NCBI GenBank assembly: GCA_051439505.1
Contig: JBFRWI010000051.1
Span: 1-49,516, forward strand
Direction: 5' to 3'
Origin: Hormoscilla sp.
GTDB taxonomy: Bacteria; Cyanobacteriota; Cyanobacteriia; Cyanobacteriales; Desertifilaceae
Length of the DNA stretch: 49,516 bases
Position numbers: made by a program. Positions 33,001-36,000 of this stretch are shown one piece after another. How positions within the stretch are numbered: position 1 is the first letter of the stretch; each line of letters begins with the position of its first letter.

Positions 33001-36000
33001 AAGCTTGGCCATTAAGTTGGGTCTGATTCCAGAACCAGAGGTGTTAGCCTTGCTAGAAAAGCGTCCACCTCATATTGACATCATCTTGACTGGACCGGAA
33101 ATGCCCCCAGTGCTTTTAGACGTGGCCGACCAAATCACGGAAATTCGTCGCAGTCACCGGCCCTAAGATCCTTGTCAGTTGTCTGTTTTAACTCACCGGA
33201 ATGCACCTGTCGCAATAGCCCGCCGAGGGTTTTAACCCTCGTGTAAAAGCTCAAGTCCACAAAGCGTGGACTAACCGCCTTCTCCATAAGGTTTTCAGTC
33301 GGTTTTAACCGACTTTAGCTATTAGCCGGGGGTTTGAACCCCCGGCGGGCTAACAGCGAAGTGAGGGAATTACTAACCACAATTATCCCTTTTAACCGAA
33401 GTAGGATGAAGTAGGGATGAAGCTGCTCTTTTAGCAGTAGCTTCATCGAGGCAAATTTGTTTCAGGGTAACTAAGCCATCCGAAACAAAAGAATCTCTCA
33501 CCAAGGCTTTTTCTCCACTGTTGAAAATACTTTCATAGAAAACTTCATGAATTCCTGCAGAAATAATTAACTTCAAGCAATAGAGGCAAGGTTCTAAGGT
33601 AACGTAAATACTGGCACCATCTGTGGAAATTCCGTGCTTGGCTGCTTGAGCGATCGCATTAGCCTCAGCATGAACGGCGCGGGAGGGCATACTTTTACTA
33701 GCATCACAGCTACTCAGTCCCGGATAGCAATAACCCTGAGCCGTACAATGAACTGAACCAGATGGGGAACCATTGTAACCCGTTGCCAGCACTTGCCGAT
33801 CTTTAACTATGACCGCCCCCACGGGAAAAGCGAGACAAGTGGAACGAGTAGCTGCCAGTTTCGCCAACATCAGGAAATACTCGTCCCAGGTCGGTCTTTC
33901 TGCTTCCATATTTACGATCTTATCCTGTACCAAATAATTCATGAGAGTGGTTTATCCTGTTCGTAGACCTGTTTCCTAGACAAAGCGATCTCGGCCTTTT
34001 GCAACTCCGTGCCCAAGTACAGGGCATGTTCCACCTGCATCCCCGGACAGTCTGCGGCAATTTGCCGATAAAGTGAAAGGGCGGATCTGCCCTCATAACG
34101 GTTAACTACCTCTCCCAAACCAGGTGTCATCTGTTCTACCAGGATTTTACCCGACTGCACGGTAATGACAAAATTCCCGGTAGGATCGTGATAGTCTCGT
34201 TGCTGACATATTTTAGCATATTGGGTTTTAATCAGCCCATCGGCATTTTCAAAAGTATCGTCATATAGATGAGCGCTTTGACTTACAGTCATCAACGGTC
34301 CCATCTTCAGGTTATAATCGGAACGAGAGGCGATCGCATCTCGGATATATTGCTGCAAAGCCCGTAACCCGATCGCATTTGCCGGCCAAGCCATATACAT
34401 ATCATTACTGCGAATGGTGGCCGTCAAGGACAATTCCCCATTGACAACCCTGACCCAAATATGATTCAAGCAAGGGCTACCACCCTTTTCGTGGTCCTGC
34501 ACGTCCCAGAGTGACATGACTGCGCTGGCCGCGTCAATTTCTCCAATTAATTTAGCAATAACCTGCTCGATTTGGTCTCGTTCAAACCAGGACCGCAAGC
34601 GTTGACCGTAAGTATATTTTACTCCTTCCCGGTAGGGAGCATCATCTAAAATTTGTGGAATGTACTCTTGGATAAAGGCCCGGTCTACAGGCAAATAATT
34701 TGGTTCGGGAAAATAGAAATCCCGGGGTTCGGACGTCACCACAGCCATCAGATCGATTAACTCTTGCCATTGACCGTCATAACCCGTAGGTCGCAAGGTT
34801 CCCGTAGTTCTAATCCTGTGAATAATCTTTACCCAAGTTTGGGCGATCGTCTGCCCTTCTATTCTATGTCCGTAACGGGGTCCAGGCAATATCTTACTCT
34901 CGATTTCAGTCAGAGTAAATTCCTGGGGCGAACCCCAAGGTGGAACTACACCCCGTTGGGAGTATAACTTAACTTGACTGACTGCCTCAGAGATTGACGA
35001 TACCTCTTGCCATTCTATGGACTCTCGCAGTTGAAGTAGTATACTAGCATCAATTTCTCGATCGATGTAGCCAGGGATAGGAGAATTAATCAGCCAACAG
35101 GGGCGATTTGTATCGCTTCTGCCTTCTGTAAACCCGTTGCGGAAGAAATCCAACAAACAGATTATCCCACCAGCATTGCGATCTTCCTTAGTAGCATTTA
35201 GTGCGACTAAGAAACGCACGTGGGGATTCGCCAACCAATTCCTGATTAGCAGACTAATGCCCCTTGTCGGGCTGTACAACTGGCCAATTACAGCAAATTC
35301 AGCCACATGCAAGTGCTTGGCAACTGCTTGCTTGACAGTCCACCCCGTAACTACCGCAGTTTGTCCCGTACCGTAAATCAGTTGATTGGGTTTGTATAGT
35401 GCCTTATACTGAAATTGGGTGGTTGCAGTCATGGTTTGTCACAATTGTCCACAAGCTGCTAATATAGCATAAACTGTAGCGAGGAACAGATGAATATTCA
35501 AAAAATAACGATATCGGCAGGTGCGGCCCTGGCAGTATTGCTGCCGATCGCCGCTCCCGCAATTGGTCAGCCAGTTGAGGGCAGGGGTGGGGATGAACTG
35601 ACCCAAGAGCAACTGGTGAGCCAGAGGTCTGGCAGAGAGCAAGTCGTCAGTGGCAAGATCGTAGAGATTGTCGGCGATCTGGTGAAGCTGAACCTGGACA
35701 ACGGCAGGGCGGGGGTCATCTCTATGTGCTGGCAAGAAAGAGGAGCCCAGGGCATAGTAGTTGGCATGAGGATTTCTGCTACCTTGGAGGGTCGGAGTAT
35801 AGTCGCTGTAAGTCGAGAAGTGATAACATCACAACGGATTGCTTCGAGCAGTCTCCTACAAAGAGTACGACAAGTCAGACGCCAGCTACAGCGGACTCAG
35901 AGAACTCCACAGCGTGGTTTCACCACACCCCCTCGGCAGCGGATCCCACAGGTTCCCCAGAGGGTTCGTCCTCAAGTGCCCGCACTGACCGTACCGCTAG

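What a model noticed while it worked through the whole genome (the two positions that open the first line are those of the whole stretch)
33373..35432. Three-domain thymidylate synthase: MtrA-like (corrinoid-protein fold) + methanogen-type ThyA + Ycf91/DUF4346, the only T [...]
The only thymidylate-synthase-like gene of this genome, g01239 (497 aa, in an operon with dCMP deaminase g01238), is a fusion of an N-terminal domain with the fold of MtrA, the cobalamin-binding subunit of the methanogen methyltransferase, a small methanogen-type ThyA core with the catalytic Cys/Arg/His-Tyr motifs, and a C-terminal Ycf91-like 'PterinBD-DUF4346' domain; ThyX and FolA-type DHFR are not found. I read it as a distinct class of thymidylate synthase that carries its own cofactor-handling domains and makes dTMP without releasing dihydrofolate, at the boldest by methyl transfer through a bound corrinoid (methyl-pterin -> Co -> C5 of dUMP). 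If true, a large part of the cyanobacteria [...]
Evidence so far: pfam.tsv: Thymidylat_synt only aa 272-404 (HMM 91-225 of 266, E 2e-14), PterinBD-DUF4346 415-493 (9e-23). Swiss-Prot: aa 188-402 29-31% to the 217-223-aa 'putative thymidylate synthases' of Methanosarcina, Methanococcoides, Methanothermobacter. AF2 with 18 homologues: N-domain pLDDT about 90; VIA-align against 48,161 PDB chains: residues 4-168 on MtrA-cobalamin 5laa_B, Z 17.0, rmsd 2.5, 149 of 159 residues, next unrelated fold Z 7.8; residues 180-387 on ThyA/dCMP-hydroxymethylase folds Z 9.2-10.5; Foldseek top hits 5l8x/5laa/9qts MtrA, E 4e-6. phmmer of aa 1-175 vs PDB: the five best hits are all MtrA (E 0.11-0.7). Invariant in 18 homologues: P320-C321-x-N-H324, R341-S-N-D344, H388-x-Y390, m [...]
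(Added by a program. Inside this text positions count along the whole contig: contig position 1 is position 1 of the stretch shown here. "Call 12" and the like, gene names such as g00115 and contig names such as C1 are that model's own, and its searches are not shown. The text may have been shortened before it was handed on; [...] marks where a part breaks off. The agent that wrote the report below was given it as the finding of a first reader that could run no searches.)

Follow-up and report, generated by a model that had tools for sequence, protein, structure and literature searches.

The report
Three-domain thymidylate synthase replacing ThyX
This gene is a widespread but unstudied enzyme that makes the DNA base T in many cyanobacteria, their viruses and tiny uncultured microbes; it carries two extra conserved domains that may let it work without the usual folate-recycling enzyme, but it lacks the residues needed to hold vitamin B12 the known way.

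Summary
Observation confirmed: a 497-aa MtrA-fold + methanogen-type ThyA + DUF4346 fusion, translationally coupled to dCMP deaminase. A deeper alignment gives a confident model (pLDDT 96.6). It is the housekeeping dTMP synthase: ThyX occurs in 1 of 51 fusion genomes but 29 of 29 others, and the two genes swap at one locus within genera, once leaving a 46-codon stump. The family extends to phages and CPR/DPANN microbes. FolA is in 9 of 51 carriers and 0 of 29 phage records, versus 3 of 3 canonical-ThyA cyanobacteria. The corrinoid methyl-relay reading is weakly supported: MtrA's His84/Glu54/Asn55 are lost family-wide, MtrH was not found, and one operon holds SHMT. This genome also encodes an overlooked non-FolA reductase (TmpR type), rare elsewhere (2 of 51). 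The flanking domains keep invariant residues even when the TS core is dead or absent, so they have their own job. Best reading (0.4): methylene-folate TS with a built-in module that re-reduces the spent folate. Mechanism is inferred, not shown. The scan noted this family before on other DNA; no paper was found.

The parts
33939..35432 (-). Three-domain thymidylate synthase gene, 497 aa (P0001)
34929..35423 (-). N-terminal MtrA-fold domain (aa 4-168). Keeps the tail-pocket positions L18, S54, G58, L62, N65; lacks His84/Glu54/Asn55 equivalents; family-specific W31, Y53, D84
34227..34883 (-). Methanogen-type short ThyA core (aa 184-402): C321, R341-S342-x-D344, N352, H388-x-Y390, Y275, E224; lacks the R126/R127, L143, H147 and F176 equivalents of E. 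coli ThyA
34470..34472 (-). Codon of catalytic Cys321 (= E. coli C146)
33954..34190 (-). C-terminal PterinBD-DUF4346 / Ycf91-like domain (aa 415-493) with D416, G419, H469, Y472, E476, Y490-x-Q492-D493
33373..33942 (-). dCMP deaminase gene, overlapping the TS stop by 4 nt; supplies dUMP (inferred)

Best explanation
The protein is the cell's housekeeping dTMP synthase (about 0.9 on its own). dCMP deaminase makes dUMP. The short ThyA core attacks dUMP C6 with Cys321, selects uracil with Asn352 and takes a methylene from 5,10-methylene-tetrahydrofolate made by SHMT, ending in dTMP and dihydrofolate as in ThyA. The MtrA-fold and DUF4346 domains form a pterin-handling module that closes the folate loop, most likely by re-reducing the dihydropterin. 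The protein would then work like a bifunctional DHFR-TS built from unrelated parts, and could stand in for ThyX or for thyA+folA. Shown: domains, fold, conserved residues, gene distribution, locus swaps. Inferred: dTMP formation, the C1 donor, any reductase activity, the cofactor.
For: dTMP role: ThyX in 1 of 51 fusion genomes and 29 of 29 non-fusion genomes; the exception lies among RNA-ligase/PNKP genes. The fusion is the only intact PF00303 gene in its 51 carriers. Same-locus swaps: G005 has a 46-codon stump then thyX-dut-dCMP deaminase, flanks 93% identical to fusion-bearing G139; G189 and G095 differ by fusion versus thyX between flanks 89-91% identical. Neighbours are dCMP deaminase, dUTPase, Tmk, Dcd and RNR. 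C321 111, N352 112, D344 108 of 116. Methylene donor: operon dCMP deaminase-fusion-SHMT in L227. Folate loop: FolA in 9 of 51 carriers and 0 of 29 viral records, versus 3 of 3 canonical-ThyA cyanobacteria. L224 has thyA-folA and the fusion in one run of genes. DUF4346 also ends DHPS-like proteins (profile probability 99.7; TIGR00284), the other enzyme that makes a 7,8-dihydropterin. In a Halobacteriota sample FolA is in 0 of 54 genomes with DUF4346 and 5 of 7 without. The module is independent of TS: 6 of 109 full-length relatives have a dead core yet keep W31, D84, D416, H469, E476 and Q492 in 6 of 6, and direct MtrA-like+DUF4346 fusions occur in 5 archaeal genomes with no short ThyA.
Against: No reductase, NAD(P)H-binding or flavin-binding relative was found for either flank: the N-domain matches only MtrA clearly, the C-domain only at Z under 6 in the whole-protein search. 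The model of the direct archaeal N+C fusion has a disordered linker and pTM 0.62, so no fixed packing is predicted there. 28 of 29 ThyX cyanobacteria lack FolA too, so a host reductase must exist anyway (PMC1971073). G000 has a TmpR-type reductase. FolA or TmpR is commoner in carriers (11 of 51) than in ThyX genomes (1 of 29), which suggests outside help with DHF is useful. Methanogen short ThyA has no such neighbours in 0 of 30 loci. The core lacks L143, H147, F176 and mostly the RR pair, so canonical hydride transfer from folate is not assured.
Confidence: 0.4

Rival explanations
1. THF-sparing synthase. Methylene comes from CH2-THF, but the reducing equivalents come from a cofactor bound in the MtrA-fold pocket (a flavin nucleotide, or a His-off cobamide used for redox) that reduces the exocyclic methylene intermediate, so THF is released, as ThyX does on another scaffold.
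For: Interchangeable with ThyX at one locus; 40 of 51 carriers lack FolA and TmpR; SHMT in an operon with no DHFR. The L143 position is never Leu (G 35, N 21, S 19, E 6, D 4 of 111), a hydroxymethylase-like trait (PMC13326640). Best structural matches of the core are a flavin-using dCMP hydroxylase (9iqc, Z 23.2) and MilA (Z 21.3), ahead of ThyA (Z 19.8). The tail pocket is kept and gains invariant aromatics W31 (116 of 116) and Y/F53 (115 of 116). Recalled, not checked: the full reaction of the methanogen enzyme was never reconstituted.
Against: The L143 sign is not diagnostic here: phage PaMx28 ThyA has Asn there and sits two genes from a DHFR, and methanogen ThyA has Glu or Asp. It does not explain why the module persists with a dead core or in ThyX archaea. 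No cofactor was observed.
Confidence: 0.2
2. Corrinoid methyl relay. Methyl-THF methylates a cobamide held base-off in the MtrA-fold domain, perhaps ligated by the invariant His469 of DUF4346, and the Cys-activated dUMP enolate takes the methyl group.
For: MtrA fold Z 17.0; nucleotide-tail residues Tyr18, Thr53, Gly57, Val61, Asn64 of MtrA map without gaps in the 52-65 stretch to L18, S54, G58, L62, N65; H469 in 114 of 116; His-off corrinoid proteins exist (PMC4915002); MetF and MetH are present in 5 of 5 carriers. Earlier scan notes report split MtrA/MtrH/ThyA/MetF operons in small archaea, which I did not find myself.
Against: His84, Glu54 and Asn55 are lost; MtrH 0 of 5; no MtrH or MetF among 85 scanned ORFs; the SHMT neighbour and retained D344 point to methylene-folate; the cobA-like neighbour also flanks thyX in G095, so it is no B12 clue; none of 9 Nitrososphaeria genomes with short ThyA has an MtrA match.
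Confidence: 0.12
3. Ordinary ThyA chemistry; the flanks are structural or binding aids (completing the folate or phosphate site that the short core lacks), and DHF is recycled by the still-unknown cyanobacterial reductase, or by FolA or TmpR where present.
For: All cyanobacteria need some DHF reductase (PMC1971073); G000 has TmpR; FolA or TmpR in 11 of 51 carriers against 1 of 29 ThyX genomes, and 6 of 8 in genus g14; ten more carriers have weak partial DHFR-like matches; the core ends where DUF4346 starts and has lost phosphate- and folate-binding residues that a flank could replace.
Against: The flanks keep invariant polar residues with a dead core or none; 109 of 109 full-length relatives found through the N-domain also keep DUF4346; ThyA without a high-capacity DHFR is unusual (PMC1971073); phages carry it without DHFR.
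Confidence: 0.23
4. Not a dTMP synthase but a dUMP hydroxymethylase or other base-modifying or defence enzyme.
For: Hydroxymethylase-like L143 position and structural neighbours; abundant in viral contigs; a TS domain occurs in a validated anti-phage system (PMC13092281).
Against: 50 of 51 carriers have no other TS or ThyX; locus swaps with thyX; no modification genes among 68 phage neighbours scanned; 0 of 5 complete phages carry ThyX; N352 and D344 are kept, unlike dCMP hydroxymethylases and hydroxylases (PMC13326640).
Confidence: 0.05

Closest known systems
Methanogen-type thymidylate synthase (NCBIfam TIGR03283)
   Same: Full-length homologue of the core: a profile of the core scores 166-190 bits on 15 of 30 such loci and 90-118 on the other 15; same truncation after the H-x-Y helix; non-Leu at L143; groups with it apart from canonical ThyA in a quick tree, SH-aLRT 97.
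   Different: Below the cut-off (122 against 174.55); fused to two extra domains; the RR pair kept in most methanogen sequences is mostly lost (RR in 9 of 116); hosts have folate genes (FolP, MetF, MetH, SHMT).
Canonical ThyA (EC 2.1.1.45, PF00303) and bifunctional DHFR-TS
   Same: Fold (Z 18-20) and Y94, C146, R166, S167, D169, N177, H207, Y209 equivalents.
   Different: No R126/R127, L143, H147 or F176 equivalent; no FolA domain; FolA mostly absent from carriers.
MtrA and cytoplasmic MtrA homologues (PF04208; PDB 5LAA, 5L8X)
   Same: Fold (Z 17.0) and nucleotide-tail pocket residues.
   Different: No His84, Glu54 or Asn55; no membrane anchor or mtr operon; MtrH not found; new invariant W31 and D84.
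DUF4346 / Ycf91 (PF14251), DHPS-like TIGR00284, MtrA-DUF4346 NF002128
   Same: Same D-P-x-G, H-x-x-Y-x-G-x-E and Y-x-Q-D motifs; a standalone 132-aa copy exists in G000.
   Different: Attached to a TS core here. The N-domain of DHPS-like proteins is not detectably related to this N-domain (probability 0.9). No function found in print.
ThyX (PF02511)
   Same: Same role and same locus; found mostly without FolA.
   Different: No sequence or fold relation.

Membership tests
ThyA (PF00303) | TS fold | tested here: met
   Z 17.9-23.2 over about 200 residues
ThyA (PF00303) | Catalytic Cys (P-C), R166-S167-x-D169, H207-x-Y209, Y94 | tested here: met
   C321 111, R341 111, S342 113, D344 108, H388 110, Y390 109, Y275 111 of 116
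ThyA (PF00303) | Asn177 for dUMP specificity | tested here: met
   N352, 112 of 116
ThyA (PF00303) | Glu58 equivalent | tested here: inconclusive
   E224 in 106 of 116; the PDB alignment starts after it, so the mapping is inferred
ThyA (PF00303) | Trans-subunit Arg126/Arg127 for phosphate | tested here: not met
   A302/S303; RR in 9 of 116, one Arg at 301-303 in 57 of 116
ThyA (PF00303) | Leu143, His147, Phe176 | tested here: not met
   G318, L322, A351; Leu at the 143 position in 0 of 111
ThyA (PF00303) | Hydride from folate C6, release of DHF | not testable with these tools
   needs an assay
Methanogen-type TS (TIGR03283) | Score over the curated cut-off | tested here: not met
   122 against 174.55; a CPR/DPANN-type member scores 148
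Methanogen-type TS (TIGR03283) | Full-length homology of the short core | tested here: met
   model positions 3-199 of 201
MtrA corrinoid protein (PF04208) | MtrA fold | tested here: met
   Z 17.0, next unrelated 7.0; distant members pass the Pfam cut-off
MtrA corrinoid protein (PF04208) | Cobalt link His84-Glu54 and Asn55 | tested here: not met
   His at 85-90 in 5 of 116; P55 and T56 at Glu54 and Asn55
MtrA corrinoid protein (PF04208) | Nucleotide-tail pocket (Tyr18, Thr53, Gly57, Val61, Asn64) | tested here: met
   L18 86, S54 91, G58 114, L62 98, N65 108 of 116; by sequence mapping, coordinates not available
MtrA corrinoid protein (PF04208) | MtrH partner in the genome | tested here: not met
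   not found in 5 of 5 carriers searched
MtrA corrinoid protein (PF04208) | Binds cobamide | not testable with these tools
   needs reconstitution and spectra
PterinBD-DUF4346 (PF14251) | Score over cut-off and motifs | tested here: met
   80.5 against 29.6 bits
Pyrimidine hydroxymethylases / hydroxylases | N177D or D169N substitution | tested here: not met
   N352 and D344 kept (PMC13326640)
Pyrimidine hydroxymethylases / hydroxylases | Polar or acidic residue at L143 | tested here: inconclusive
   mostly G, N, S, but also polar in a DHFR-linked phage ThyA and in methanogen TS
Bifunctional DHFR-TS | FolA domain fused to TS | tested here: not met

The most novel reading that the evidence does not exclude
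A third class of thymidylate synthase: the MtrA-fold and DUF4346 domains hold a redox or methyl-carrying cofactor (a His-off or His469-ligated cobamide, or a flavin) so that dTMP is made with no free dihydrofolate and no DHFR. The same DUF4346 chemistry, as standalone Ycf91, could be the missing dihydrofolate reductase of cyanobacteria and algal plastids, and the missing partner of methanogen-type ThyA.
Probability: 0.32. Interest if true: 0.9.

Novelty: new variant of a known kind. Interest (0 to 1): 0.62.

Why it matters
Two routes to dTMP are known: ThyA with DHFR, and flavin-dependent ThyX. This family is the sole thymidylate synthase in 51 of 300 sampled genomes of the phylum, occurs in at least 118 viral contigs and in CPR/DPANN microbes, and mostly lives without a recognisable DHFR. 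If its flanks recycle or spare folate, it is a third solution. It would also give a first function to DUF4346/Ycf91 and to His-less MtrA homologues, and would make the open question of the missing cyanobacterial DHFR testable with one complementation experiment. If the flanks are only structural, it is an annotated ThyA variant of modest interest.

Tried and rejected
Complex prediction of the N-domain with the C-domain gave no verdict (score 0.01); not used either way. Homology between this N-domain and the N-domain of DHPS-like proteins: rejected. The cobA-like neighbour (window 32630-33166) as a B12 clue: rejected, it also flanks thyX. MtrA or DUF4346 genes beside methanogen ThyA: 0 of 30 loci within about 1.5 kb. 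Archaeal MtrA-DUF4346 as obligate partner of short ThyA: 0 of 6 such genomes have one, 5 of 6 have ThyX; their neighbours showed no folate genes. TmpR as the family's general reductase: 2 of 51 (in SDR-rich genomes only 30 candidates were scored). PTR1-type model TIGR02685: 0 of 5 over cut-off. L143 as proof of hydroxymethylase activity: rejected. No clear solved fold for DUF4346 appeared, but the domain was not folded and searched alone, so this is inconclusive. Word-index searches for a standalone core (cyanobacterial-type fragments) and for further MtrA fusions (3 hits) and the named-genome scan (2 MtrA loci) added little. INPHARED phages hold no full-length copy (0 of 105 matches cover 80%). 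The split MtrA/MtrH/ThyA/MetF operons of earlier notes were not met in my 19 metagenome loci, which were selected for likeness to the fusion. The careful tree did not finish; the quick tree is quoted. Expression data were not examined.
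Full report
Observation. The window holds a 497-aa ORF at 33939-35432 (-) and a 189-aa ORF at 33373-33942 (-) that overlap by 4 nt. 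Pfam finds Thymidylat_synt at 272-404 and PterinBD-DUF4346 at 415-493, with only a faint MtrA trace (E 0.27); the second gene is a dCMP deaminase. NCBIfam ranks the methanogen-type TS model first, 122 bits against a cut-off of 174.55. The 93%-complete genome has one PF00303 match, no ThyX and no FolA. The nearest named relative, 91% identical, is from Hormoscilla. Residues 4-168 match MtrA-cobalamin 5laa_B at Z 17.0; residues 184-402 match TS-fold proteins at Z 17.9-23.2; the C-domain matched nothing above Z 5.8 in this whole-protein search.

It is the housekeeping dTMP synthase. A full-length homologue is in 51 of 300 other genomes of the phylum, all in the same order. I searched those 51 and the 29 same-order non-carriers that the truncated output listed. 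ThyX is in 1 of 51 and 29 of 29; the exception sits among RNA-ligase and PNKP genes, a phage-like setting. Canonical ThyA is in only 3 of 300, and in carriers the fusion is the only intact PF00303 gene. The two enzymes replace each other in place: G005 keeps a 46-codon stump of the fusion followed by thyX, dut and dCMP deaminase, with flanking DNA 93% identical to fusion-bearing G139 of the same genus, and G189 and G095 differ by fusion versus thyX between flanks 89-91% identical. These genomes are kin, so the counts are not independent trials, but both states occur within genera g4, g9 and g22. A COG table with 23 ThyX and 8 ThyA among 31 cyanobacteria fits this (PMC5954106, passages).

The family is wide. 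A profile of the N-domain hit 437 representatives at 50% clustering, of which 150 were listed. All 109 listed proteins of 430 aa or more have all three domains by profiles built here (Pfam on 100 of them). Named distant members come from WWE3, Parcubacteria, KSB1, Tectomicrobia and Woesearchaeota. 118 of 125 viral stretches encode a relative; of 68 neighbouring ORFs scanned, the informative ones are dCMP deaminase, ribonucleotide reductase, thymidylate kinase and replication genes, with no base-modification genes. In a quick, midpoint-rooted tree of 86 cores, fusions group with methanogen-type short TS apart from canonical ThyA (SH-aLRT 97), and viral and cyanobacterial copies interleave.

The core. 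Aligned to E. coli ThyA, it keeps Y94, C146, R166, S167, D169, N177, H207 and Y209 as Y275, C321, R341, S342, D344, N352, H388 and Y390, each in 108-113 of 116 rows. N352 indicates dUMP and D344 argues against the flavin hydroxylase branch (PMC13326640, passages). It lacks R126/R127 (RR in 9 of 116), L143 (Leu in 0 of 111), H147 and F176. The L143 change is a hydroxymethylase-like sign, but phage PaMx28 ThyA, two genes from a DHFR, has Asn there and methanogen ThyA has Glu or Asp, so it does not decide. How the phosphate is held without the RR pair is unexplained.

The N-domain. In MtrA the cobalt is held through His84 and Glu54, with Asn55 on the ring, and the nucleotide tail lies against Tyr18, Thr53, Gly57, Val61 and Asn64 (PMC4915002, parts 1-2 of 5 read). 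Mapping on the 5laa sequence gives L18, S54, G58, L62 and N65, in 86-114 of 116 rows, but P55 and T56 for Glu54 and Asn55 and His near position 84 in only 5 of 116. The domain gains invariant W31, aromatic Y53 and D84. So a nucleotide-shaped pocket probably survives, while His-on cobalt binding does not. MtrH was not found in 5 of 5 carriers; MetF and MetH are in 5 of 5, but serve methionine synthesis anyway (established knowledge). The neighbouring cobA-like gene also flanks thyX. Near CPR/DPANN-type copies, 85 of 135 ORFs from 17 of 19 loci were scanned: no MtrH or MetF, but an operon dCMP deaminase-fusion-SHMT (L227) and a run dCMP deaminase-dcd-thyA-folA-fusion (L224). That favours methylene-THF as donor and equivalence to thyA+folA.

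The flanks have a job of their own. DUF4346 keeps D416, H469, Y472, E476 and Q492 in 104-114 of 116 rows and the same motifs in DHPS-like proteins (those 30 sequences were picked by the H-x-x-Y motif, so that motif's count is circular). Six full-length relatives with a dead core keep W31, D84, D416, H469, E476 and Q492 in 6 of 6. Five Nitrososphaeria genomes encode a His-less MtrA-like domain fused straight to DUF4346, and a sixth has the N-domain at a contig end; none has a short ThyA and five have ThyX. The model of one such protein has two good domains, a disordered linker and pTM 0.62.

The reductase question. Strong FolA matches are in 9 of 51 carriers and 1 of 29 ThyX genomes; weak partial matches (E 1e-4 to 1e-7), which I did not count as FolA, are in 10 and 3 more. 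FolA is in 0 of 29 viral records, 15 of them at least 90% complete, and in 3 of 3 canonical-ThyA genomes. So 40 of 51 carriers have neither, including single-contig genomes. Absence of FolA alone proves little, since ThyX cyanobacteria lack it too and their reductase is unidentified (PMC1971073, passages). Pointing the other way, DUF4346 is attached to two unrelated enzymes that make 7,8-dihydropterins, a reductase fused to DHPS has precedent (same paper), and among 61 Halobacteriota FolA is in 0 of 54 genomes with DUF4346 and 5 of 7 without, a contrast probably tied to lineage.

Mechanism. I put dTMP synthesis at about 0.9. For the flanks: built-in re-reduction of dihydrofolate 0.4; non-catalytic aids with a host reductase 0.23; a bound cofactor that reduces the methylene intermediate and spares THF 0.2; corrinoid methyl relay 0.12; base modification 0.05. 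None of these steps is shown biochemically. Earlier scan notes on split MtrA/MtrH/ThyA/MetF operons in small archaea kept the corrinoid reading alive for ancestral forms; I did not meet such operons and treat them as leads.

Novelty. Databases already name these proteins thymidylate synthase, so the role is annotated, but I found no paper on the architecture: 'duf4346' and 'pterinbd' gave 0 papers; 'ycf91' gave 4 plastid-genome papers (passages of PMC5940233 give no function); searches gave nothing on it in their listings. Passages of PMC7824862 link TS with DHFR in jumbo phages and do not mention MtrA or pterin; passages of PMC13092281 list a TS domain in a defence system without MtrA. The library lacks most subscription journals, and I read no supplements; those of PMC1971073 and PMC7824862 could list this family. 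The remark that the methanogen enzyme was never fully reconstituted is recalled, not checked. The scan has reported this family before on other DNA. Verdict: a real, new variant of ThyA with an uncharacterised module; a one-in-three chance that it is a mechanistically new class.

Noticed in passing
G000:C78, L254 26-3683 (+): Run of four genes: pyridine-nucleotide oxidoreductase, Methyltransf_33, a TmpR-type SDR reductase over the NF012208 cut-off, and a divergent DHPS-like protein. An accessory pterin cluster; the reductase was over cut-off in only 2 of 80 other genomes.
   Followed up: partly
G000:C69, L032 4308-4706 (-): Standalone 132-aa Ycf91/DUF4346 gene with the same H-x-x-Y-x-G-x-E and YxQD motifs; candidate for the missing cyanobacterial DHFR activity (speculation).
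   Followed up: partly
L134, L136, L137 (Nitrososphaeria): Standalone MtrA homologues that keep the His (CGxEVxGH) lie convergent with a dUTPase_2-like gene, with a PfkB kinase next to it in L136 and L137, in ThyX genomes; role unknown.
   Followed up: partly
P0194, P0195, P0198, P0199, P0208, P0210: Full-length relatives whose TS core lacks the catalytic motif but whose flanking domains are intact.
   Followed up: partly
L045 1566-3076 (G235:C314): Second, divergent copy of the fusion gene, broken near residue 273, beside an SNase-like and a HAD-type gene; looks mobile-element borne.
   Followed up: no
L042, L046, L047, L050: Several cyanobacterial fusion operons insert a divergent 266-318-aa Dcd-like gene and a nucleoside deoxyribosyltransferase-like gene between the TS and the dCMP deaminase; two have a divergent Tmk upstream (L037, L042) that does not match G000 by tblastn.
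   Followed up: no
G394, G395, G406, G416, G417, G422, G426, G427, G435, G443, G450: Eleven Halobacteriota genomes encode a 420-520-aa frame with two TIGR03283-like stretches, a tandem TS-TS protein.
   Followed up: no
P0233: 862-aa relative with an extra N-terminal MtrA-like repeat ahead of the three domains.
   Followed up: no
window 39454-39801 (-): ORF made largely of an 11-residue unit repeated about eight times, i.e. a 33-base tandem repeat.
   Followed up: no
window 33220-33355: Two GC-rich inverted repeats between the convergent cobA-like and dCMP deaminase genes, seen by eye; possible terminator or small repeat element.
   Followed up: no
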